The position numbers and the translations under genes are program-made. A DNA stretch of 64,000 nt, taken from an uncultured Candidatus Saccharibacteria bacterium (GTDB taxonomy: Bacteria > Patescibacteriota > Minisyncoccia > Phycocordibacterales > Phycocordibacteraceae). Location of the stretch: assembly GCA_964607655.1 (NCBI GenBank), contig CAZSKX010000001.1, positions 232,939-296,938 of the forward strand, given 5' to 3'. Of the stretch, positions 4,705-60,855 are shown in pieces (positions within the stretch are counted from its first letter, which is position 1; every line of letters begins with the position of its first letter). A model generated the notes under the pieces. The model was given only the letters and a program-made list of their open reading frames with translations. It was not told the DNA's origin and ran no database searches.

Positions 4705-5415
4705 CTAAGCAACCATAGGAACCTCGATAAGCAGCGCCCTCCCTTGGCCTGAAATGGAGACTGATGGGGTATCTGAGACGCCAAGCGCATCTCGTGCAGA
4801 GAGCCTGGTGCCGGCCACTGTGAGATTACCCTCAATCACAAAGACGTATACTCCGTCTCCTTCTTGTTTGACGTGGTAGTCGAGAGGTTTGGTCTTGGCA
4901 TCTACATAGGTTATCCACGCGTCCTGATTGATCATGAGCTCACCGACACGGCCTTTCTCGAATGGCGCCACCAAGGACAGCTCCCTATCAGCCGCCTGTA
5001 ATAGATGAAAGCTTTTCTGCGCATACTGTACCGGCGCGTTCTGCTTATTGGGCGTAATCCAAATTTGAAAAAGCTTAAGTGACTCTGTGGGCGAGTTGTT
5101 GTACTCGGAATGTAGTACTCCGGCGCCGGCTGACATAACCTGCACATCGCCGGCAGCTACAACGCCCTCATTTCCCTCGCTATCCTTGTGGGTCACGGCA
5201 CCCTCGGTGACTATTGTGATAATTTCCATATCTCGATGCGGGTGCATACCGAAGCCAGACGAAGGGGCTATGGTGTCGTCATTGATCACCCGGAGCGCGC
5301 CGAACCCCATGTGGTCTGGGTTGTACCAATCGGCAAAGCTGAAGCTAAAGCGGCTCGAGAGCCATCCGTGTTCAGCCACCCCTCGTTCATTCGCTCGATG
5401 TAATATTGCGTTCAC
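4705..5415 (-). CDS. pirin-family cupin protein
   Basis: 236 aa. Has HPHRDMEIITIV/EG motifs and a bicupin layout, typical of pirin (YhhW-like). Confidence 0.85.
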   Translation of the reverse strand: MNAILHRANERGVAEHGWLSSRFSFSFADWYNPDHMGFGALRVINDDTIAPSSGFGMHPHRDMEIITIVTEGAVTHKDSEGNEGVVAAGDVQVMSAGAGVLHSEYNNSPTESLKLFQIWITPNKQNAPVQYAQKSFHLLQAADRELSLVAPFEKGRVGELMINQDAWITYVDAKTKPLDYHVKQEGDGVYVFVIEGNLTVAGTRLSARDALGVSDTPSVSISGQGRALLIEVPMVA

Positions 5416-5469
5416 GTCTTAAACTATAGCAAAGGTGATATGCGGACTGCGTGGAACGATGATGAACAT

Positions 5470-6036
5470 TTATTCCGACTTCCTGCGTAGTAACTGCGGG
5501 AAATATTCAGCCGTAATCTCCTCGACGTACTCCTGTAAGGGGCCCATACCCATCGCCGCGCGACGTTCGTCGACACGCTCGCGGTCTTCGATGGGCTGTG
5601 GTTCGTATGCGATCGTTTGGCCGCTCTCATCTCGCGTTTCGTTCATTTGGGTCCCGTAGACCTGCCCCCTACCCGAGTTCACGCGTATTCGGTCAGTAAG
5701 ATACGCCACGTCACGGAGCTCGACTTCGCTAGGTGGCTCGGCTTGCATGAGCGAGAGGCAGTGTTCTTGGAACGCGACATCCTTATCGGCATGCTGTACG
5801 AGAAGCCAAGCGGCGTGAGATGCCTTCATGCCAACTTTCGATACGGTCGGCCAGCCGATCTGAGCGATGATATTCTTCATCGCCTCGGTATTGCGCGGGT
5901 CAACAGTATCGTCCCATTTACCTTCTAGATCCTTCCGCATCTTTTGGTCAATTTCCTCCATTGCGAGGATTTGTTCGGCCATGTCTTTGTGCTTAAAACT
6001 CTCAGGTTGAGGTTGTTGAGAGGGCTGCTTCTCCAT
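5470..6036 (-). CDS. hypothetical protein
   Basis: 188-aa ORF with coding-like composition. No recognisable motif. Confidence 0.4.
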   Translation of the reverse strand: MEKQPSQQPQPESFKHKDMAEQILAMEEIDQKMRKDLEGKWDDTVDPRNTEAMKNIIAQIGWPTVSKVGMKASHAAWLLVQHADKDVAFQEHCLSLMQAEPPSEVELRDVAYLTDRIRVNSGRGQVYGTQMNETRDESGQTIAYEPQPIEDRERVDERRAAMGMGPLQEYVEEITAEYFPQLLRRKSE

Positions 6037-11216: not shown

Positions 11217-11492
11217 AACGTTGATCGCGTTTTGTTAGTAACTCTCGATGGCCAGGTACACAAAAACCCGGACACCAAGGTGAGCCTTGCGGCCCCTACC
11301 AGAGTTTCCCCTGATAACGCGATCAACGCCCCTGATGCCGGGGTTTTTACGTTGATCGCGATTTGCAACCGTATCCTATAAAACTCAGTGTTCTTTAGGG
11401 GTTAGGTCGTCTTTTATTCAGTTGTACAGGTACATAGTAGCAAATTTTGCTACCGTTGACACCTTAGCTTAATAATTGAGGCTTGCGAAGTC

Positions 11493-11517: not shown

Positions 11518-14500
11518 TTAAGCTGAAATCAGAGTTCTGACTTTCGCATCAAGTCTATTAACAACATCCACTTGTTTTTCCAATGATTGAAGTAAGAACA
11601 GAAGGCGTTTTAAATGATTTTTTGTGAAGTTTGTTCTGGTATATGCGTGAGAATGCATCTTTAACCATTGTTGTAACACTTGATAACCACCAACTTGAAA
11701 ATCAAGAATCTCACAAGGAATTGGTTTTATTTCAAACTCGGAACGACCATCTTTTAAGATTATTGATTCGAACTCTTTATTAATCTTGAAATCAGTCATC
11801 TTTAAATCCTGAGCAAGTAAATTGAGATACTTGGAGTATTTTTCTTCGATAAAAATGTCTTCATCTTGAGTATGCCTCTCTTGCAGAGCAAGCTCTTCTC
11901 CCAGAGCAGCGATGCTATCAAATAGATCCTTAGACTCAGGTACTGGTATGCGAGGAGATTCGCTTCCTGAAGGAGTGAACAAAACTGGTTCAAACGCGTC
12001 CAAGTAAGCACTTGAGCAAAGAATTCCATACACATAAAACACTGCTTTATCGGGAGACTCTTCTCCGATCGTCGTCAAAAAATCCCTACTTACATTTACT
12101 TGTGGAGTATCATTCCAAGTCCTTCTTCCTTGTTTGTACTCAGGAAAGTAATTACAAAACACGTGTGCATTTCCACGCTTACTCAAATCATTATCTGGCA
12201 AATACCAACAAAAAGATGCAAAGCGGTGAAGCTCTTCCCCCAGATCTTTAGGGGACGGTGCAATAGCAATTCCAAAAGTTCTACTGTCTTTATATGCACT
12301 GACAATCTCAGGACGATAACGAGTTCCACCGCCCGGAGCACGGGCAAGAACACCTAATACATCTTCGGATATAAGTGCTGGGAGGTTTAGCATTGGTCTA
12401 TACGAATACATTGCAGCAGAATCTTCCCCGCGTTGTTGGAGGTTATTTTTGAATGCTGCACGCACCGTAGAAGAAAACTTTGCGGCTCCTGGTGGGCGAT
12501 CCTGTCCTCTATACCAACGAGAAAGGATTTCGGGGGTCTCAATTTCACTATTCGCTATATCAGAACTTCTCCTAAACAAGATCGGCTCATCGGCATGAAC
12601 GAACAAGCTTGAAGGAGCCAATTTCAAACCTGAGCAATGCCTATCAAATATGTACTTCTCTTCAGAGGATGTGTCGCTTTTATAGAGAGGCCAGAAGCTC
12701 GAATAAAGCTCACTATTAAAATCTTTGCGTGGCCTGAAAATTGGATCACTCACATCAGTGTCATAAGCATCAAACTTTTGAAGCATGCTTTCTCCTGCAT
12801 CGGCTTCTATATCAAAGAAGGCATTCTTCTCATCAATATTAAAATCAGCAATCGAAATATAGTTGTATAAGACAGATTCTTTATCAATTCTCTCTTGTTT
12901 TCTTAATGCAACAAAAAGAAGACGTCCCTGAAGTGTGTGGAATATGCTCGAGGAACGAACACCTGTTCTGCCGTCCTTATCGATATCAACCACCCAAAAT
13001 TTATCGAAATTCTTAGCAAACCATGTTCGTGCGTATTTATACGAAGGACTCTCGGCAAAAGAAGCGGGTAGCACTAAAGCAACAATGTTATTCCCGGTCT
13101 TGACGGCCTTATTTCCTGTCCATCGCAAAAACTTAACAAACTCATTCTGAAGCTGTTTTTGAGTATTTTGGCGGGTATTTCTTGCTTCAGTAGGCGGGCG
13201 AAAATCTTCAAGAAGGTTTTGGATGATACTGAAATCTTCACCATTACTATGAGAAAAGGAATCCGAAGATGGTGGATTTCCAATAATGAGAGTCAATGGT
13301 GGCTTTGCGAGATCTCTTGCTACTTTCTGTTCATCTTCAAACAAGTTTTGCTGCCCGCTTCCTGCTGGACCACTTTCTAATACGTCACTCAGGGTATTAG
13401 TTAAGACAATATTCACATCTGAATAATCGGGAGAAACTTTTGCAATTCTATAGTGTGCAAGCGCATACGGCGCTGGCAAGATTTCAAATCCAATAATGTT
13501 TGCATTACCACCACTTCGCACCGAAGAAAGTAAAAGTCTCTCCAAGAAAGAACCTGTTCCGCAACAGGGGTCGATAAGTCTGTTACCTCTGTCGTAAATA
13601 CTTCCTCCAAATTCTTTTCCGTTAATTTCTTCCACTAATGAAACAGTGTAGGCAGCAAGTTCTTTTGGCGTATAAAAAGCTCCATAATCAAAGCGTGTTT
13701 GAGGATCGAAGGCACCAAGAAAACGCTCGAAAAGTCCATGATAATCAGGAGTAGTGACCTGATCCTCTTTCAATTCAACGTGAGAAAGCATCAAGCAACA
13801 ATCTTCATACCAAACACCCAGAGCTCCAACAGAGGATATTTCCTCACGCAAGAGTTTGGTTAAGGCTCTGAATGGCTTAAGGTGTTGAGTGAACCTAGTA
13901 TCCAGATCTTCTAACCAAAATTCCTTTAATTTTGAATATCTGTCAGTGGGACTCATACTCTCAACTCCTAAAACTCTATGGGCATATATAAGTCCAAATA
14001 TTAAAACCTGAGAAACAAAAGCAGAAAAAACTTTTTTATCTCTCAATAAAGGATCATGGTGCTTTTGAACGATTCCTCTGAGTTGAGCCAATATCTCTAT
14101 TGCTTCGTTCTCAAGATCATTTAATCCTGCACCGCTACGCAAATCAGCCAAAGCTTCTATTTCACCTGCTAAAAATCTAGCGCGCATAGCACACTCCGCA
14201 ACGAGCTGTTGTTCTGAGATACGCCTTGCAGCAAGATTTCCAAAGAATTTTCCAAATTCTGTTTCAATCAAAGAAAGGTTGCTGGAAATTCTGCCTTCTA
14301 GAGATCCACTGACACCCTTATCAATCAAAGAGTATGCGCGATGAGACTTATCTGTTGGATCAAAGAAAATAAACTCGACACCATCAGTCAGGATAACCCT
14401 ATAACCAAGTGAAAGGTATTTTTCAACCTGCTCTATGTAATCTTCAACCTTGATTGATTTGTCTTCTGAAAATGCTTTCGCCTCAACATATCCATAAATC

Positions 14501-50581: not shown

Positions 50582-50652
50582 GGGCCTATAGTTTAGTGGT
50601 AAAACAGCGGTCTCCAAAACCGCCGTCCCAGGTTCGAGTCCTGGTGGGCCCG
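50582..50652 (+). tRNA. tRNA-Trp (anticodon CCA)
   Basis: GGGCCTATAGTTTAGTGGTAAAACAGCGGTCTCCAAAACCGCCGTCCCAGGTTCGAGTCCTGGTGGGCCCG folds as a cloverleaf. Anticodon loop CTCCAAA. Confidence 0.9.
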
Positions 50653-50753
50653 CTTGACATGTATTTTATAATGTGCTAACATATTTTTGGAAAAGAATTC
50701 TAGTTTCTTGACGTAACCGTACTGATCAACTCAACCAAAGAAAGAGGTGCCCG

Positions 50754-51797
50754 ATGTCAAAGTCTCTCGAAGATATGATCGCCGACGGAACGTTACCGAT
50801 CTTCCCGACAACCTATGCGCAGCGAGTCGTCGACCACGCTGCACACAAGGCAGGCCGTGGAAGTGGCCGCAACCCGTCCATGCCGTTTCTCGAAGAACGC
50901 AACCCGCGCAAGGCGCTCGGGCTGGCGGAAGCCATCCTCGAGTCCCCTGACGGGCTGATCAGGGAGCGCCTGCTCAATCTGAGACAGCACCTCCCTGGTC
51001 AACAGCAGGCAATCTACGACTTCGCTGCACACATGGCCAACTACACCAACGCGGAACTCGTTCCGCAGGGGTTTGCGATGGCCGCGGCGCTCGCGCTCTA
51101 CGACCTGCAGGAGGGCTCGAACGGATTCACCGGCAAGCCCATCACGGGCTCGCTCGTGGGACAGCCTGCTCTGGTGTACCGGCTCATCGAGATGATGGTT
51201 CCGAACATCGCCAAGGCGATCTTCCCTGCTGAGTTTGCGGGCGGGGTCAAGGAGATGGTCGACGGGGTCCACACCATCCGGCGTGAACGTGCGGAGGCTG
51301 TAAAAGCCGCCGCTCCCAAGCCGACCATCGCCGGCGATCCATTCGTGACCTACGAGGCCATGCGCAAAGTCGCCGATCTGGTGTACACCTTCTACGACAG
51401 CAACGCGGGGAGCCGCTCTGGCAAACCGTGGTGCGAAGACCGGCGAAACCAGGGGGTCAACCCCTTCTACCATCAGACCACCGGCGGCCTGTTCCTCGAA
51501 CAGTACTACAGTGGTCCCGGCAGCATCTGGACGCCCTGGGGCGAATGGAACTGCTGGGGTAGCGGCACGGGGAGCGAAGAAGCGATGCCGAACTTCCTGG
51601 CTTCGATCGGACAGATCGAAGTCTATCAGGAGGTGCGGCACACACGTGAGGGGACCTTCGGTCCGATCTACGCGATCCTGAAAGTTGGTGACGTCGAGTT
51701 GCCGAGGCCCGAGCCGCGAGAACCTGCGTCGTACGTCGCGTACGAGGAGGCGAATCGTCTCTGGGACGAGATGACAGAACGGTTCGAAAGCAAGTAA
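50754..51797 (+). CDS. hypothetical protein (347 aa)
   Basis: GAGGTG SD before the ATG, and its own terminator at 51833-51882. The antisense 346-aa ORF is an artefact. No recognisable motif. Confidence 0.5.
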   Translation: MSKSLEDMIADGTLPIFPTTYAQRVVDHAAHKAGRGSGRNPSMPFLEERNPRKALGLAEAILESPDGLIRERLLNLRQHLPGQQQAIYDFAAHMANYTNAELVPQGFAMAAALALYDLQEGSNGFTGKPITGSLVGQPALVYRLIEMMVPNIAKAIFPAEFAGGVKEMVDGVHTIRRERAEAVKAAAPKPTIAGDPFVTYEAMRKVADLVYTFYDSNAGSRSGKPWCEDRRNQGVNPFYHQTTGGLFLEQYYSGPGSIWTPWGEWNCWGSGTGSEEAMPNFLASIGQIEVYQEVRHTREGTFGPIYAILKVGDVELPRPEPREPASYVAYEEANRLWDEMTERFESK

Positions 51798-51832
51798 GAC
51801 GTTGACGAACACTGACCGTCGCTCTGTGAGCA

Positions 51833-51882
51833 CGCCGCCCTGCGGATGTGTTCCTCAGGGCGGCGGTCTCTCTTTTTATATT
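51833..51882 (+). terminator. rho-independent terminator
   Basis: Hairpin CGCCGCCCTG...CAGGGCGGCG followed by TCTCTCTTTTTATATTT. Confidence 0.7.
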
Positions 51883-52076
51883 TAAACCAAACTCACCAGC
51901 TCTCCGATCTGCCGCTTCATGGACTCAGGATCAAGGACCGCACCAGCCCAGTCAAAGGTACGGAACGCAGACTGCCATGCCGCATATTGACATTTAATTC
52001 TTAGCGTGTCATATAATAATTTGAAGCTCTTCACAAACAAGTGAGGACCAAACTCTGTTCGGAGGTAAAAGAAACC

Positions 52077-52541
52077 ATGACAAACCGTCTGACGAAAGGA
52101 ATGTACGGCCATGAGTTCGGGAGCACCAGCGACCTGTTCGGGATCCGCTGCGGCCAGATGCGCGGCGGAGAGCTCGTCCACAACGGCGGGTGGTACAACC
52201 GGCTGGGCGAGAAGCTTGGCTGGGGTGACCTCTCCATCGAGGACATGCAGCGCATCGCGAGCCAGCTCGAAGAGGGCGAGCTCTTCATCATCCTCGGCGA
52301 GCGGGACTCCTACTGGGATATCCATGAGGAGAAGGGTGACCAGAAGAAGGACGAACACGCGCCGGGCGTCGAGTACGTGACGAAGAAATGCCGCTACATC
52401 ATCGCTCCCAAGCAGCTCTACGCTGCCGACGAGTTCGGAAACGTCACGGAACCCGTGAAGCGCCAGCTGGACGGGATGGAGTTCACCTGGTTGCCTCGCG
52501 AGATGGTCAACCGGCTGATTGCCACCGGGTCCATCAACTGA
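52077..52541 (+). CDS. hypothetical protein (154 aa from an SD-supported start)
   Basis: GGAGGT lies 10 nt upstream of the ATG at 52077. Followed by the terminator at 52550-52605. Confidence 0.45.
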   Translation: MTNRLTKGMYGHEFGSTSDLFGIRCGQMRGGELVHNGGWYNRLGEKLGWGDLSIEDMQRIASQLEEGELFIILGERDSYWDIHEEKGDQKKDEHAPGVEYVTKKCRYIIAPKQLYAADEFGNVTEPVKRQLDGMEFTWLPREMVNRLIATGSIN

Positions 52542-52549
52542 CCAACGAG

Positions 52550-52605
52550 CCGTCACGGCGGGACAGCGAGAGAGCTGTCACTGCGGTGACGGCTCTCTTT
52601 TTATA
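52550..52605 (+). terminator. rho-independent terminator
   Basis: The long hairpin CCGTCACGGCGGGACAGCGAGAGAGCTGTCACTGCGGTGACGG is followed by CTCTCTTTTTATA. Confidence 0.7.
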
Positions 52606-52663
52606 CAAGTGTGTGTGCATTGCCTGCATACGCTCTACTCATAGGTGATAAAATTTAAGTGCT

Positions 52664-53032
52664 ATGGCACTGCTAAAAAACCGGCATACTGAACACCGGC
52701 CGTGGGGATCATTTGATCAATTCGCCTTAAATGAGGCGTCGACTGTGAAGGTCATAGCCGTTGAGCCTAATCAGCGTCTCTCTCTTCAGACACACACCAA
52801 ACGTGCTGAATTTTGGTACATCCTTCAGGGACAAGGAGAGGTCACGGTTGGCGAGACCGTGCATGCCGCTAAGGCCGGAGACGAGTTCGAGATTCCTGTG
52901 GGGACAGCGCACCGGGCTGCTAGCGGCGCTGAGGGATTAACGTTTCTTGAGGTATCGCTCGGAGAGTTTGATGAGCACGACGAGGTACGACTTGAAGACG
53001 CTTACGGCCGCACCTCGCCCACCAGCCAATAA
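52664..53032 (+). CDS. cupin-domain protein (mannose-6-phosphate isomerase type II C-terminal-like)
   Basis: HRPWGSFDQF...LSLQTHTKRAEFWYILQGQGEV...GDEFEIPVGTAHR cupin_2 pattern. Confidence 0.75.
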   Translation: MALLKNRHTEHRPWGSFDQFALNEASTVKVIAVEPNQRLSLQTHTKRAEFWYILQGQGEVTVGETVHAAKAGDEFEIPVGTAHRAASGAEGLTFLEVSLGEFDEHDEVRLEDAYGRTSPTSQ

Positions 53033-56860: not shown

Positions 56861-56962
56861 GCCATTAACGCATTGACACGTAGTCCTATTTCGATGTATA
56901 AATACGATTGGGTGAATCTGCTCCTTGACAGGAGTATTCGTTATTAAAAAGGAGGCCAGTAA

Positions 56963-57736
56963 ATGGCAGACCAGCTAGAGAAAGGATCGACGATCGAGTG
57001 CTTCCGGCACTACGCGACGCACGTGCTCCCCCCCAAGGGGGCGCGCAATTCGTCTACGGCAAAAGAGCCGATGGCACGGTTCATCGGAGTGGCGCCAGAT
57101 GCCATTACCGGATGGCTCCATCGTGACACAGAACCCGTCGGCGCATCGCTTCTGAAGCTGCGCTTCTTCCTCGACGCCGTCGGCTACGAGGTCACGGAGC
57201 TCAGGGTGATGCAAGGGACGGTGAATTACATGCTCGCAGAGATGCTGGCATATGACGTCGTCACGACGCAAGAAGCCCTCGAGCTCTTCGGCTTCTCGAG
57301 GCCCAAGACGATCTACCACCTTGCCTTCGGCAAGGGCGGTACGAGCGAAGGCCCCGCTTCGAAGATCGAGAACCACTACTGGAAGTCGGCTGACGCGCTC
57401 ACGCAGGCGAAGAACGCTCTGCGCGAACAGCTCGGTCGGCCTCTCGAAGAAGCTCTGCTGCCGGCCGAAGTGCCAGCAGCAACGACGACACGGAGAGAAC
57501 CCTCTCCGCCGAAAACTGTTGCTTCGGGCGAGGAAGACTCCTTGCTCGAATTGATCGCCAACCTCGTCAACACGCTCACTCCACACCTGGAGCGCATCGT
57601 GGGGACCAATCGTGGCCAGCGCGACCGTCTGCGCAAGCTCGTCGGTGGCGATGGAATGTTCAGACTTTCCATCGCCTCGAGTAAGCTCTGCAGCGAGAAA
57701 GCGCGCGAGGTCATGCAACAAGGTACGGAGGGATGA
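56963..57736 (+). CDS. hypothetical protein with a putative N-terminal XRE-like HTH
   Basis: AGGAGG SD. The segment FIGVAPDAITGWLHRDTEPVGASLLKLRFFLDAVGY resembles an XRE-type HTH. 4-nt overlap (ATGA) with the downstream GHKL ATPase gene. Confidence 0.45.
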   Translation: MADQLEKGSTIECFRHYATHVLPPKGARNSSTAKEPMARFIGVAPDAITGWLHRDTEPVGASLLKLRFFLDAVGYEVTELRVMQGTVNYMLAEMLAYDVVTTQEALELFGFSRPKTIYHLAFGKGGTSEGPASKIENHYWKSADALTQAKNALREQLGRPLEEALLPAEVPAATTTRREPSPPKTVASGEEDSLLELIANLVNTLTPHLERIVGTNRGQRDRLRKLVGGDGMFRLSIASSKLCSEKAREVMQQGTEG

Positions 57737-59514
57737 AGATGTCTCGCAGTCCATTCGGTTTTCATCAAGGCTCTGCTCTTCTGAAGCTCGCGAGTTTCTA
57801 CCCGCGACTTCTCGACGTGCTGCTCGAAGAGGTGCAGAACTGCATCGACAAGGGCGCACGGGCAGTGCATCTGACCATCAACCAGAAAACCCGCAACGTC
57901 GCGATCCGCGATGACGGTGACGGCGTGAGCCAGCACGAGTTCGAGCAGGCGCTCACGAGCATCTCCAAGACGATGAAAGATCGTAAAAAGGGAAAGCTCG
58001 GGCGCTTCGGCCTCGGACTCATCTCGCCACTCGGCAAGTGCGAACGCTTCGTCTTCACCTCGACGTCGAAGCGCGATCCACGTGCCTACCTCGAGTGGAC
58101 CTTCGTCACGAAGGACCTCGAGGATCAGGAGACCATTCGTGGGATCCCGATGCGGACCCGCCCGGACCTCCTCTTCCGTCGTGGTGAGAACCGAAACGTA
58201 CGCGGCACCACAGCGGTACCGTGGCGCACGGAAGTGCGCATCGAGCGCTACACCAACGATCGGCAGATCAACCGAGTAACCATGGAGTCCTTGCGCGAAG
58301 GCATTCTCGACCGCTTCGGTCCGAGCATGCGTCGCAACCAGGTTGTTGTAACCGTCAAGCTCACCCACGAGAGTGGCGAGAGCTCGACACTCGACATCAA
58401 GGCCAAAGACTTCGAGGGCACGAAGCTCCCGGAGTTCACGGCCGAGGACCGCTCGAGCAAGAGCCGGACCTGGTTCAAGCTCTATCTCGCTCGCAAGACC
58501 GAGAAGGGCCGCAAGGGCAAGGTGCTCGTCGGCGAGGTGGATAACGACTTCCGCTTCGACTTCAGCACCTTCGTGCGCTACCTGGGCGACGACTTCGACC
58601 TCTCGGACGAGGCTGTTGCGGCGCTGAAGTCGGGCGTGTTCGAGGGGGAGATCCTGAGCGACGTGGTGCAGCTGCACGAGAACCGAAAGTCGTTCCTGGC
58701 GAACGAGGCTCTGCTCGCGTTCTGCGCGGCGATCGAGGAGTGGTTCGAGCTTCACGGCAAGAAGCACTTCAAGGAGGCCCAAGAGGAAAAGCAGGAGGAG
58801 CGGTATCAGACCCTCGGCACGCGCTCGATGCGCGTGATCGAGGAGATGCTCAAACTCCCGGCGTTCTCAGGTCTTCTGCAGGCGATCGACTCCTTCAAGA
58901 AGGGTTCGATCGGTCCTGGCCACACCGAGCACAAGGGTGCGACGAGTCCTGACACTTCGCTCGCGGTCCGTGGAAACACGGGTCGCTCGAACGAAGGGCG
59001 CGAGAGCACGGGCGACGGCGAGGGTCGAACCCCGCCGAAGAACGATCTCCCCAAGGACCGGCCGCTCACGGTGGTCGGTCCGCGCGGGGTGAATCGGACG
59101 ATCGTCCGCGGTCACAGCACGGGCCTCCAGCTCGCACACGTGGCGATGCCGGGCAGCCAGAGCCTCTGGGTGCTCGACGAAGTCATGGGCGTGCTGAAGA
59201 TCAACGTGCTGCACCCGCTGTGGCTCCAGTGTGAAGAACACAACGACCGGTCGCTGATGCGCTTTCAGGAGTACCTGATGCTGCAGGCATTGGGTCTCCA
59301 GGCAGCACCGCAGGACTGGGCGCAGTTCGCTCGGCTCGTCTTCGACGAGCTGAACGCACCGTATGCCTTCATGTTGGTGCACGGAGACGCACTCGCTGGC
59401 CGCCTCCCTGGCAGTCGCGCAAAGGGGCCTGTCGAGAAGCAGAAGGTGACGGCTATCGAGCCGAAGCCATCTTCAACTCGACTCACCCTCGCCAAGCGAC
59501 GCGCTCGGGCGTAG
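57733..59514 (+). CDS. GHKL-superfamily ATPase (MORC/Hsp90-like HATPase_c_3 type) with a long uncharacterised C-terminal region
   Basis: N-box LLEEVQNCIDKGA, G1 box IRDDGDGV and G2 box GKLGRFGLGLIS within the first ~110 aa. Total length 593 aa. The antisense 468-aa ORF is an artefact. Confidence 0.65.
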   Translation: MKMSRSPFGFHQGSALLKLASFYPRLLDVLLEEVQNCIDKGARAVHLTINQKTRNVAIRDDGDGVSQHEFEQALTSISKTMKDRKKGKLGRFGLGLISPLGKCERFVFTSTSKRDPRAYLEWTFVTKDLEDQETIRGIPMRTRPDLLFRRGENRNVRGTTAVPWRTEVRIERYTNDRQINRVTMESLREGILDRFGPSMRRNQVVVTVKLTHESGESSTLDIKAKDFEGTKLPEFTAEDRSSKSRTWFKLYLARKTEKGRKGKVLVGEVDNDFRFDFSTFVRYLGDDFDLSDEAVAALKSGVFEGEILSDVVQLHENRKSFLANEALLAFCAAIEEWFELHGKKHFKEAQEEKQEERYQTLGTRSMRVIEEMLKLPAFSGLLQAIDSFKKGSIGPGHTEHKGATSPDTSLAVRGNTGRSNEGRESTGDGEGRTPPKNDLPKDRPLTVVGPRGVNRTIVRGHSTGLQLAHVAMPGSQSLWVLDEVMGVLKINVLHPLWLQCEEHNDRSLMRFQEYLMLQALGLQAAPQDWAQFARLVFDELNAPYAFMLVHGDALAGRLPGSRAKGPVEKQKVTAIEPKPSSTRLTLAKRRARA

Positions 59515-59664
59515 CAATAACGGGTAACTCCTACAACCAAACCCCCGCGGCACACGTAATGCGTGCCGCGGGGGTTCTGTTTTTACAGCGGGACTTATTT
59601 CTTGGCTCCTGAGGAAACACGGGATATGATTACAGGACTCTTAGCGTAGTGGTATATTTCCTCC

Positions 59665-60642: not shown

Positions 60643-60677
60643 CAAAAGCCCCGCTCTTGCGGGGCTTTTGTTATTTC
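60641..60677. terminator. bidirectional rho-independent terminator
   Basis: The hairpin AGCCCCGCTCTTGCGGGGCT is flanked by AACAAA and TTTTGTTATTT. Confidence 0.7.
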
Positions 60678-60855
60678 TTGGCTTCTTTGAAGATGACGTT
60701 TTTGCGCAGCACGGGGTCGAATTTCTTGAGCTCAATCTTACGTTGGACAGCTTTTTTGTTCTTCCGGCTCCACATCGTGTGAGCTGATTCGGTCGACTTA
60801 AGCTTTATAAGGCGGTCTTGTGACATACCGTAGCACTGTACCAGACTGGACCCTG

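What the first reader, a model, noticed from the sequence alone, without database searches (positions are those of the whole stretch)
56963..59514. Translationally coupled pair: XRE-HTH-like protein plus MORC/Hsp90-like GHKL ATPase, a candidate uncharacterised defence or regulatory module
- The 593-aa protein has clear N-box, G1 and G2 motifs of the HATPase_c_3-type Bergerat fold in its first ~110 aa. About 480 further residues have no recognisable family, and there is no kinase phospho-acceptor region.
- The upstream 257-aa gene overlaps by ATGA and carries an XRE-like HTH candidate.
- The pair sits between a sugar-metabolism cluster and a secreted-protein gene, unrelated in function.

Stand-alone MORC-like GHKL ATPases with small partners recur in prokaryotic conflict systems. 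This particular pairing is not one I can assign to a named system.
Basis: partly seen in the sequence, partly recalled or inferred. Interest (0 to 1): 0.55.

Follow-up and report, generated by a model that had tools for sequence, protein, structure and literature searches.

The report
Conserved HTH plus GHKL-ATPase accessory operon
A small self-contained operon encoding a helix-turn-helix protein and a MutL/Hsp90/MORC-like ATPase is real, is kept together in about thirty mostly Patescibacteria genomes and fits no named system; it most likely forms a DNA-directed, ATP-driven clamp, but its biological role is unproven.

Summary
Genes A (56963-57736, 257 aa) and B (57733-59514, 593 aa) are real, tightly coupled, and have their own promoter-like site and a strong terminator.

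- **B** has an intact GHKL ATP site. Its AlphaFold model matches MutL N-terminal, Hsp90 and GyrB ATPase-plus-transducer modules. It also has a C-terminal region found only in this family.
- **A** is all-helical. Its HTH is weak in the window copy but supported across the family. Its most conserved part is a C-terminal helical motif.
- **Linkage:** an A homologue lies directly upstream of B in every locus with upstream DNA, and the two proteins co-diverge.
- **Third gene:** about half the loci add a small gene C upstream of A. The window lacks it.
- **Accessory status:** neighbours differ between loci and are mostly housekeeping. A close relative lacks the pair at the syntenic site. The module is GC-richer than its flanks in 29 of 31 loci.
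- **Not a known system:** scores fall far below the HtpG, MutL and MzaB cut-offs. No kinase, nuclease, STAS, HEF_HK or DUF4263 domain was found, and no defence system recurs nearby.

Best reading: an accessory module in which A brings a dimeric ATP-driven clamp (B) to DNA. A defence role is plausible but unshown. Verdict: a new variant of the MORC/paraMORC-type kind.

The parts
56873..56902 (+). Promoter-like site of the operon: TTGACA (56873-56878), 18-nt spacer, TATAAA (56897-56902)
   Evidence: Read from the sequence. The scan tool did not list it because it requires T at position 6 of the second hexamer. TTGACA-type sites are seen upstream of the module in many other loci. Inferred, not tested.
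56919..56936 (+). Inverted repeat TGCTCCT-TGAC-AGGAGTA just downstream of the promoter-like site; candidate operator for A or a 5'-UTR hairpin
   Evidence: Listed as a stem-loop. The block ATCTGCTCCTTGACAGGAGTATTCGTTA is identical in the relative L036, while the flanking intergenic DNA has diverged. As RNA it is not unusually stable (z -0.38). Its function is inferred.
56950..56955 (+). Ribosome-binding site AGGAGG, 7 nt before the ATG of A
   Evidence: Read from the sequence.
56963..57736 (+). Gene A, 257 aa. Helical protein with an N-terminal HTH region (about aa 30-140, possibly two HTH units), a variable acidic linker (aa ~160-190) and a conserved C-terminal helical motif (aa ~190-257: LTPxLE...R..LRKL.G..GMFRLS...S.LCSEKARE)
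   Evidence: ORF. AlphaFold model pLDDT 75.5. HTH evidence. Alignments; W51, G60 and R220 are invariant, and P58, R224, L242 and E245 nearly so. An A homologue lies directly upstream of B in every locus with upstream DNA.
57733..59514 (+). Gene B, 593 aa (591 aa if the second ATG at 57739 is used): GHKL ATPase, transducer, family-specific C-terminal region and basic tail
57733..58107 (+). B aa 1-125: Bergerat-fold ATP-binding domain (HATPase_c_3) with intact N box, G1 and G2
   Evidence: Pfam E 1.8e-12. Invariant E32, N36, D39, D60, G62, G64, G90, G93, G95. The family profile aligns this stretch with the N-terminal ATP-site region of MutL.
58108..58692 (+). B aa ~126-320: mixed alpha/beta middle domain matching the transducer of MutL, Hsp90 and GyrB; invariant R274, G301, G305, R318
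   Evidence: Foldseek matches span 370-450 columns to PMS1/MutL N-terminal fragments (TM 0.53-0.57 by target), Hsp90 and GyrB 43K, E 1e-12 to 1e-9. Model pLDDT is mostly 85-95. Invariants. Domain limits are approximate.
58693..59400 (+). B aa ~321-556: long helices (325-386), a beta domain (390-491, with a disordered G/S/E/R-rich loop at about 412-444) and a three-helix end (495-554); invariant W337, G342, G464, N491, H494
   Evidence: Model. No Pfam match. A profile of aa 318-593 finds 432 clusters at 50% identity; all of the best 150 have the same ~560-aa architecture or are fragments. A dimerisation role is inferred by analogy with MutL and Hsp90.
59401..59511 (+). B aa 557-593: disordered basic tail (11 K+R, 2 D+E, pI 12)
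   Evidence: pLDDT about 40; composition. K/R-rich tails recur in homologues. Nucleic-acid binding is inferred.
59540..59585 (+). Intrinsic terminator: 14-bp G+C-rich stem (59540-59576) followed by a U-rich tail (UCUGUUUUU)
   Evidence: RNA fold -34.1 kcal/mol, z -6.15, none of 200 shuffles as stable. Conserved with compensating changes in L036. The scan tool missed it because the loop is longer than 8 nt.

Best explanation
A and B form a self-contained accessory operon. In about half of the related loci a small upstream gene C joins them. The products most likely work as one DNA-directed ATPase machine.

Proposed mechanism:
- B is a dimeric GHL-type ATPase (GHKL ATP site, transducer and C-terminal dimerisation region, as in MutL, Hsp90 and MORC). 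It closes on ATP binding and reopens on hydrolysis.
- A binds DNA through its N-terminal Cro/C1-type HTH region and binds B through its conserved C-terminal helical motif. It therefore either targets the clamp to DNA or represses the operon, or does both.
- The basic tail of B adds non-specific nucleic-acid affinity.

The module is not housekeeping. It is rare, sits in unrelated neighbourhoods, is absent from a close relative at the same site, and differs in composition from its hosts. Its likeliest role is therefore in genome conflict, that is handling or silencing of foreign DNA, or a function carried by a mobile element.

Shown here: gene structure, the intact ATP site, the GHL fold, strict A-B linkage and co-divergence, and accessory status.

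Inferred: the A-B complex, DNA as substrate, the clamp cycle, and any defence role.
For: - **Intact ATPase site and GHL fold:**
- **HTH in the A family:**
- **Strict linkage:** an A homologue lies directly upstream on the same strand in all 31 loci with both genes complete, in 2 more where B is cut by the contig end, and in L036, L039 and L041-L046. Independent gene calls give A-to-B gaps of 0-37 nt.
- **Co-divergence:** pairwise identities of A and B correlate with r 0.76, and 0 of 2000 Mantel permutations reach this value.
- **Conserved C-terminus of A:** it is the best-conserved part of A even at 20-25% overall identity.
- **Charge:** B has pI 9.4 and a tail of pI 12.
- **Own promoter-like site and strong terminator:**
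- **Accessory status:**
  - Only 32 loci were found among 185,579 species genomes, and neighbourhoods differ between them.
  - The relative L040 has tRNA-Trp, the 325-aa gene, L33 and ClpB with no A-B. L036 has A-B on the other side of the 325-aa gene.
  - The module is GC-richer than its flanks in 29 of 31 loci, by 7.3 points on average.
Against: - No effector domain (nuclease, TIR, helicase, methylase) is present in B or encoded nearby.
- There is no PADLOC system hit. Neighbours are mostly housekeeping, and no defence island is seen.
- There are no homologues in 50,697 phage or 72,556 plasmid records, and only one on an IMG/VR contig.
- The HTH of the window's own A is below every curated threshold.
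- The A-B interaction and DNA binding are untested, and no complex model could be run.
- The structure search only reports whole-chain hits, so the C-terminal region remains unclassified.
- The GC excess could reflect protein composition rather than transfer.
Confidence: 0.4

Rival explanations
1. A is only the autorepressor of the operon, like the controller proteins of restriction-modification systems or the XRE regulators of defence and toxin-antitoxin loci. B acts alone, on a substrate that need not be DNA.
For: The best fold matches of A are small dimeric repressors, including the controller proteins C.BclI, C.Kpn2I, C.AhdI and C.Esp1396I. A conserved inverted repeat lies next to the promoter-like site.
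Against: The most conserved part of A is its C-terminal helical motif rather than the HTH, and A is three times the size of a controller protein. A and B co-diverge and are never found apart in the loci examined. No common operator was seen across loci.
Confidence: 0.2
2. It is an addiction or toxin-antitoxin-like module. B would be a growth-arresting ATPase, and A its antitoxin and repressor.
For: The layout is a two-gene, translationally coupled, HTH-first operon. It has a patchy distribution, sits in unrelated contexts and differs in composition from its hosts. Two A homologues give weak YdaS-type matches.
Against: [quoted passage not shown] No toxin domain was found. The frequent third gene C is not explained.
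Confidence: 0.1
3. It is an Hsp90-like chaperone with its own transcriptional regulator, forming a proteostasis or stress module.
For: The best Foldseek matches include many Hsp90, GRP94, TRAP1 and HtpG structures. ClpB lies within 1.4 kb in the window and within about 0.5 kb in L034.
Against: HtpG scores 13.4 bits against a cut-off of 371, and the Hsp90 family model 24 bits against 455. MutL and PMS1 N-terminal fragments fit as well or better by target TM-score. ClpB adjacency in 2 of 31 loci is within chance. The strict pairing with an HTH protein and the basic tail point to nucleic acid instead.
Confidence: 0.08
4. It is a lineage-specific DNA repair or topology factor of Patescibacteria, acting as a MutL or topoisomerase-ATPase substitute. 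On this reading it is housekeeping rather than conflict-related.
For: The fold and the best sequence-profile hits are to the MutL N-terminal domain. Some neighbours are DNA-metabolism genes: DnaB, RecR and RmuC in L041, and PIF1 helicases in three loci.
Against: MutL TIGR00585 scores 22.5 bits against a cut-off of 180, and no MutL C-terminal endonuclease or dimerisation domain is detected. No Toprim or nuclease partner is present. The module is rare and patchy, and it is missing at the syntenic site of a close relative.
Confidence: 0.1

Closest known systems
Prokaryotic MORC and paraMORC1-5 ATPases (Iyer, Abhiman & Aravind 2008, PMC2292703)
   Same: They share the N-terminal GHKL domain of the HATPase_c_3 type, an S5-type transducer and family-specific C-terminal extensions. 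They are also sporadic and laterally mobile, and have tightly linked partner genes.
   Different: Those families sit in restriction-modification contexts with SF2 helicases, methylases and RE-fold, HNH, Vsr or TIR partners. None of these is linked here. The partner here is a dedicated HTH protein (plus gene C in other loci), and the C-terminal region is confined to this family. The MORC-specific motif was not tested.
MutL N-terminal ATPase (LN40) and eukaryotic PMS1/PMS2/MLH1
   Same: These give the best sequence-profile hits in the PDB (E 1.6e-6) and the best target-normalised structural fit (TM 0.53-0.57). The catalytic Glu, Asn and DxGxG motifs align.
   Different: The score of 22.5 bits falls far below the cut-off of 180. 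There is no MutL C-terminal domain and no MutS or MutH context. The module is accessory rather than universal.
HEF_HK (PF19191) / Response_reg_2 (PF19192) gene pairs related to paraMORCs (Bellieny-Rabelo et al. 2021, PMC8011034)
   Same: It is a HATPase_c_3 protein strictly linked (91.6%) to a small partner gene, read as a two-protein unit.
   Different: Neither PF19191 nor PF19192 is detected in B or A at E up to 1. The partner there is receiver-like rather than HTH-like. Those pairs lie beside type II R-M systems and C5-methylases, which is not the case here.
Shedu type I-D / paraMORC3, e.g. VcSduA (PMC12137116)
   Same: It has an N-terminal GHKL ATPase with a clamp-like middle domain, and it is a proven anti-phage protein of comparable length.
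   Different: VcSduA carries a C-terminal DUF4263 PD-(D/E)xK nuclease that is essential for defence. B has no such domain and no conserved D...(D/E)xK pattern. VcSduA is a single-gene system.
CapK/CapS and VapKSC (PMC13373217)
   Same: This is a GHKL-domain protein paired with a DNA-binding regulator in immune contexts.
   Different: CapK is a SpoIIAB-type serine kinase with HTH and STAS domains, and CapS is STAS plus a winged HTH. It regulates a downstream immune operon. Here there is no STAS domain, the ATPase is of the MutL/Hsp90 type with a transducer, and no downstream operon follows because a terminator comes straight after B.
Tiamat TmtA and MZA MzaB (PADLOC / NCBIfam models)
   Same: There is weak local similarity of the ATP-binding region: TmtA E 8.2e-7, MzaB E 9.9e-9.
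   Different: The matches cover only aa 27-123. TmtA is about 1,500 aa. MzaB scores 34 bits against a cut-off of 850, and none of the other MZA genes is present.

Membership tests
GHKL (Bergerat-fold) ATPase superfamily | N box (ExxxNxxD), G1 (DxGxG) and G2 (GxxGxG) motifs in a HATPase_c-type domain | tested here: met
   Pfam HATPase_c_3 scores 47.9 bits against a cut-off of 25. E32, N36, D39, D60, G62, G64, G90, G93 and G95 are invariant in 34 sequences.
GHL subgroup (GyrB / Hsp90 / MutL / MORC type) | ATP-binding domain followed by an S5-fold transducer domain | tested here: met
   The model (pLDDT 84) aligns over 370-450 columns with PMS1/MutL N-terminal fragments, Hsp90 N and M domains and GyrB 43K, at E 1e-12 to 1e-9. 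The sensor residue (candidates R274 or R318) was not assigned.
MORC family proper | The MORC-specific sequence motif that unites MORCs and separates them from paraMORCs (Iyer 2008) | not tested
   The only data are a weak profile hit to the human MORC2 N-terminus (E 7.6e-4, aa 24-100). No MORC alignment was available for comparison.
MutL | Score above the TIGR00585 / PRK00095 cut-offs, and a C-terminal MutL dimerisation or endonuclease domain | tested here: not met
   TIGR00585 scores 22.5 bits against 180, and the PRK00095 models 10-19 bits against 391-840. No MutL_C match in Pfam.
HtpG / Hsp90 | Score above the HtpG or Hsp90 family cut-offs, and the HSP90 middle and C-terminal domains | tested here: not met
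   NF003555 scores 13.4 bits against 371, and NF010683 24.1 bits against 455. No PF00183 match.
Sensor histidine kinase / anti-sigma kinase (including CapK) | DHp/HisKA phospho-acceptor helix, or a STAS partner or domain | tested here: not met
   No HisKA, HEF_HK or STAS match in B or A. HATPase_c scores 21.3 bits, below its cut-off of 26.4. No invariant His lies in the long helices.
Shedu type I-D / paraMORC3 | C-terminal DUF4263 PD-(D/E)xK nuclease | tested here: not met
   No DUF4263 match, no PADLOC Shedu hit, and no invariant acidic or lysine triad in the C-terminal region.
HEF_HK + Response_reg_2 pairs | PF19191 in the ATPase protein and PF19192 in the partner | tested here: not met
   Neither family appears at E up to 1 in a Pfam copy dated 2025.
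MZA (MzaB) and Tiamat (TmtA) defence systems | Full-length match to the model and the system's other genes or architecture | tested here: not met
   MzaB scores 34.1 bits against 850. TmtA matches only aa 27-96 of a 1,486-position profile. No Mza genes are nearby.
Cro/C1 (XRE)-type HTH proteins (for A) | Match to an HTH_3 or HTH_31-type model, or a five-helix Cro/C1 fold | tested here: inconclusive
   The window's A has no Pfam or NCBIfam hit. Supporting hints are PHROG MerR-like HTH at E 8.6e-4, the family profile against P22 c2 at E 0.04, and Foldseek matches to C.BclI, ClgR, P22 c2 and HipB at probability up to 0.9 but E about 1. Each of HTH_23, HTH_17, HTH_3 and HTH_31 matches 3-4 of 32 homologues, best E 1e-6.
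Type II toxin-antitoxin systems | Toxicity of one product that is neutralised by the other | not testable with these tools
   This needs expression experiments.

The most novel reading that the evidence does not exclude
C-A-B (A-B in this window) would be a previously unrecognised immune or DNA-silencing system without a nuclease, centred on Patescibacteria. An HTH adaptor would load a MORC/MutL-like ATP-driven clamp onto incoming or resident foreign DNA. The clamp would then block or compact that DNA rather than cut it. This would be a bacterial counterpart of MORC-mediated silencing in eukaryotes.
Probability: 0.15. Interest if true: 0.75.

Novelty: new variant of a known kind. Interest (0 to 1): 0.5.

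Why it matters
- **Uncharted accessory genes:** Patescibacteria make up a large share of bacterial diversity. They have tiny genomes, and very few defence or accessory systems are known in them.
- **A compact test case:** this module spans at least 270-430 clusters at 50% identity and is always paired with its own HTH protein. That makes it a small, testable example of how GHKL-plus-transducer engines are coupled to DNA recognition without a nuclease, helicase or methylase.
- **Link to eukaryotic MORCs:** if it acts on foreign DNA, it would extend the MORC/paraMORC theme to a new architecture. It would also speak to whether clamp-type silencing predates eukaryotic MORCs.
- **Even if regulatory:** it would still define two, or with C three, new protein families with clear boundaries.

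Tried and rejected
- **Divergent HtpG or MutL:** rejected on curated cut-offs and on the variable context.
- **Histidine or anti-sigma kinase (CapK/CapS-like):** rejected; no DHp or STAS domain.
- **Shedu or paraMORC3:** rejected; no DUF4263.
- **HEF_HK / Response_reg_2 pair:** rejected; neither Pfam family is detected.
- **Phage or plasmid cargo:** no match in the INPHARED or PLSDB collections. The one IMG/VR hit is a 354-kb contig whose viral nature I could not verify.
- **Defence-island context:** PADLOC hits among the 112 nearest neighbours were to generic ATPase, helicase and reverse-transcriptase models. No system recurred.
- **A conserved third or fourth gene downstream:** none found. 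PIF1 helicase occurs in 3 loci, GIY-YIG in 2, P-type ATPases in 4, ClpB in 2 and PMM/HAD in 2; I treat these as chance.
- **A common operator upstream of the module:** none found across loci.
- **Gene C:** no Pfam, NCBIfam, PADLOC or PDB match. The best is an SH3b-like segment at E 1.6.
- **Wider search for A relatives:** a 32-sequence profile added only two proteins.
Full report
**1. Observation**

The start of B needs one caveat. The GGAGGG at 57727-57732 is too close to the overlapping ATG. It fits a second in-frame ATG at 57739, which is the start called in the 91%-identical relative (591 aa, 2-nt gap). Either way the genes are tightly coupled.

The pair has its own signals:
- A promoter-like site: TTGACA, 18 nt, TATAAA at 56873-56902.
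- An AGGAGG ribosome-binding site 7 nt before the ATG of A.
- A strong intrinsic terminator at 59540-59585 (-34.1 kcal/mol, z -6.15).

It is therefore a self-contained transcription unit.

**2. The ATPase (B)**

Pfam finds only HATPase_c_3 (E 1.8e-12, aa 29-123) and no phospho-acceptor domain. In an alignment of 34 homologues at 33-91% identity, the following are invariant: the N box (E32, N36, D39), G1 (D60, G62, G64) and G2 (G90, G93, G95). Further invariant positions run along the whole protein: K102, W122, R274, G301, G305, R318, W337, G464, N491 and H494.

The AlphaFold model is good (pLDDT 84.2, pTM 0.68). Its parts are:
- a Bergerat domain;
- a mixed alpha/beta middle domain extending to about aa 320;
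- long helices at 325-386;
- a beta domain at 390-491 containing a disordered loop;
- a three-helix end at 495-554;
- a disordered basic tail.

Foldseek against the PDB aligns 370-450 columns with GRP94/Hsp90, PMS1 and MutL N-terminal fragments, and GyrB 43K (E 1e-12 to 1e-9). The best target-normalised TM-scores (0.53-0.57) are for the MutL-type fragments. A family profile against PDB sequences also puts MutL first (E 1.6e-6) and aligns the catalytic Glu/Asn and DxGxG.

B is therefore a GHKL-plus-transducer ATPase with an intact active site. It is not a member of the curated families:

| Model | Score (bits) | Cut-off (bits) |
|---|---|---|
| HtpG | 13.4 | 371 |
| Hsp90 family | 24.1 | 455 |
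| MutL | 22.5 | 180 |
| MzaB | 34.1 | 850 |

PADLOC gives only a local N-terminal match to Tiamat TmtA.

A profile of the C-terminal 276 residues, scored against 1.84 billion representative proteins, finds 432 clusters at E up to 1e-3 and 268 at E up to 1e-30. All of the best 150 have the same ~560-aa architecture or are fragments. The C-terminal region is specific to this family, and the family is moderately large.

**3. The partner (A)**

The window's A has no Pfam, NCBIfam or PADLOC match. Support for an HTH is indirect but consistent:
- a PHROG MerR-like HTH family at E 8.6e-4 over aa 18-60;
- the family profile against P22 c2 repressor at E 0.04 over aa 33-66;
- Foldseek matches of the all-helical model (pLDDT 75.5) to C.BclI, ClgR, P22 c2, HipB and other Cro/C1-type repressors, at probability up to 0.9 but E about 1;
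- HTH_23, HTH_17, HTH_3, HTH_31 and ISL3-type HTH models, each matching 2-4 of 32 A homologues with best E 1e-6.

The helix pattern suggests two HTH-like units between aa 30 and 140. The most conserved part of A is the C-terminal helical motif (LTPxLE...R220..LR224KL.G..GMFRLS...S.LCSE245KARE), which stays recognisable at 20-25% overall identity.

**4. Linkage**

I collected 32 loci from species-representative genomes and several metagenomic contigs.
- An HMM of A finds a homologue directly upstream of B, on the same strand, in all 31 non-redundant loci where both genes are complete.
- The same holds in two more loci where B is cut by the contig end.
- The only locus without a detected A has just 334 nt upstream.
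- Independent gene calls give A-to-B gaps of 0-37 nt.
- Pairwise identities of A and B correlate with r 0.76, and 0 of 2000 Mantel permutations reach that value.

The two genes are inherited as a unit.

In 16 loci a third small gene, C, sits directly upstream of A, often with a 4-nt overlap. C is 80-120 aa with the motif ITFSLxxWxG..GQVV.L....F..GWRA..ARP. It matches nothing in Pfam, NCBIfam, PADLOC or the PDB. The window has no C anywhere.

**5. Accessory status**

The record titles are mostly Patescibacteria: Saccharibacteria, Paceibacterota, Microgenomates, Sungbacteria, Vogelbacteria and Taylorbacteria. A few MAGs are labelled Gammaproteobacteria, Thermotogae, Acidobacteriaceae or Nitrospiria; I did not verify those labels.

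The two nearest neighbours on each side in 31 loci (112 proteins) are heterogeneous and mostly housekeeping: GreA, MreB, aminoacyl-tRNA synthetases, ClpB, PMM/HAD, P-type ATPases, and a few PIF1 helicases, GIY-YIG proteins and one reverse transcriptase. No defence system recurs.

Three related genomes at 77-85% nucleotide identity differ exactly at this site:

| Locus | Gene order |
|---|---|
| L040 | tRNA-Trp, 325-aa gene, L33, ClpB (no A-B, no GH130 cluster) |
| L036 | tRNA-Trp, cupin, GH130, GH130, HAD, 326-aa gene, A-B, L33, ClpB |
| Window | cupin, GH130, GH130, HAD, A-B, 325-aa gene, L33, ClpB |

The block that moves with A-B is window 56893-59606, that is, the two genes with their promoter-like site and terminator.

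The module is GC-richer than the DNA flanking it in 29 of 31 loci. The mean difference is 7.3 points and the maximum is 16.7. In the window the values are 0.618 against 0.531. I cannot tell whether this reflects transfer from a GC-richer pool or protein composition.

There are no homologues in the phage or plasmid collections. The single IMG/VR hit is a 354-kb contig where A-B sits in a co-directional run of ORFs with no recognisable relatives.

**6. Mechanism**

The anatomy is that of a dimeric ATP-driven clamp of the MutL/Hsp90/MORC kind. It comes with a dedicated partner that has a DNA-binding-type N-terminus and a conserved C-terminal motif, which I take to be the B-binding surface. B is basic (pI 9.4) and has a tail of pI 12.

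I propose the following:
- A tethers B to DNA, and may also repress the operon through the conserved inverted repeat at 56919-56936.
- ATP binding closes the clamp, and hydrolysis resets it.

The complex, the DNA substrate and the biological role are all inferences. The accessory, patchy, context-free distribution favours a role in genome conflict. However, the lack of any effector domain, defence-island context or PADLOC hit keeps that reading at roughly one chance in three.

The rivals are an autorepressor with an independent ATPase, an addiction module, an Hsp90-like chaperone, and a lineage-specific repair factor. Each is scored in the rival section.

**7. Comparison with known systems**

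- The closest kind is the prokaryotic MORC/paraMORC radiation of GHKL-plus-S5 ATPases with linked partners (PMC2292703). Those families sit with helicases, methylases and nucleases in R-M contexts, which is not the case here.
- The HEF_HK/Response_reg_2 pairs (PMC8011034) are the nearest two-gene analogue. Their defining Pfam families are absent here.
- Shedu type I-D/paraMORC3 (PMC12137116) has a DUF4263 nuclease that B lacks.
- CapK/CapS (PMC13373217) uses a SpoIIAB-type kinase and STAS domains, which are also absent.

I found no paper describing this family.

**8. Verdict**

This is a new variant of a known kind: a distinct GHKL-transducer family with a dedicated HTH partner and an optional third gene. 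It is centred on Patescibacteria and its role is unknown. Interest is 0.5.

Noticed in passing
window 50654-52696: About 2 kb lies directly after tRNA-Trp (50582-50653) in the window but is absent from the relatives L036 and L040. Its GC is 0.62-0.63 against about 0.53 for the window. It holds two ORFs, 50754..51797 (347 aa) and 52041..52541 (166 aa), with no Pfam, PADLOC or PHROG match. The tRNA is inverted relative to both relatives. It looks like a second, unrelated insertion at a tRNA.
   Followed up: partly
window 59595-59650 and 60646-60690; L040:1185-1270: Just after the A-B terminator there is a 13-16 nt copy of the 3' end of the L33 gene. It is followed by a ~45-nt relic of the 3' end of the HAD/PMM gene, and then by the 325-aa gene. 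That junction would arise from a tandem duplication of HAD 3' end, 325-aa gene, A-B and L33 3' end, followed by two deletions. This would explain why A-B and the 325-aa gene are swapped relative to L036. L040 also carries a ~45-nt duplicate of the L33 3' end upstream of its 325-aa gene.
   Followed up: partly
L036:5430-5445 and L036:8155-8170: In the relative L036 the A-B block is flanked by TTACTATTTGAC and TTACTATCTGAC, which agree at 11 of 12 positions. This could be a target duplication or an attachment-like repeat. I found it post hoc, and it is not clearly present in the window.
   Followed up: no
31 loci (L001-L035 and the window): The A-B module is GC-richer than its own flanks in 29 of 31 loci, by 7.3 points on average and by up to 16.7. 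Host GC ranges from 34% to 58%. This is opposite to the usual AT bias of acquired genes and remains unexplained.
   Followed up: partly
L001:6833-7198, L008:4141-4440, L016:6894-7250, L035:2258-2560 and 12 more: A small gene C (80-120 aa, probably beta-rich) lies directly upstream of A in 16 related loci, often overlapping A by 4 nt. It matches nothing in Pfam, NCBIfam, PADLOC or the PDB, and it is absent from the window.
   Followed up: partly
window 11281-11408 (-): A LOOT RNA (Rfam RF03000) matches at 68.5 bits against a gathering score of 46.4, over the full model length.
   Followed up: no
L039:9289-11653 (IMG/VR UViG 3300013121_000020, 354 kb): This is the only A-B pair found on a contig catalogued as viral. 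It lies in a co-directional, tightly packed run of ORFs. The three large neighbours tested have no PDB relatives, and there is no tRNA in 21 kb. I did not establish whether this is a huge phage or a misfiled cellular contig.
   Followed up: partly
L003:813-2045 and 5169-5531; L037:9813-10172 and 12444-13739: In two unrelated loci a small GIY-YIG gene lies within about 140 nt downstream of B and an RVT_1 reverse transcriptase lies within 3 kb. This suggests the module can sit in regions visited by other mobile elements.
   Followed up: no
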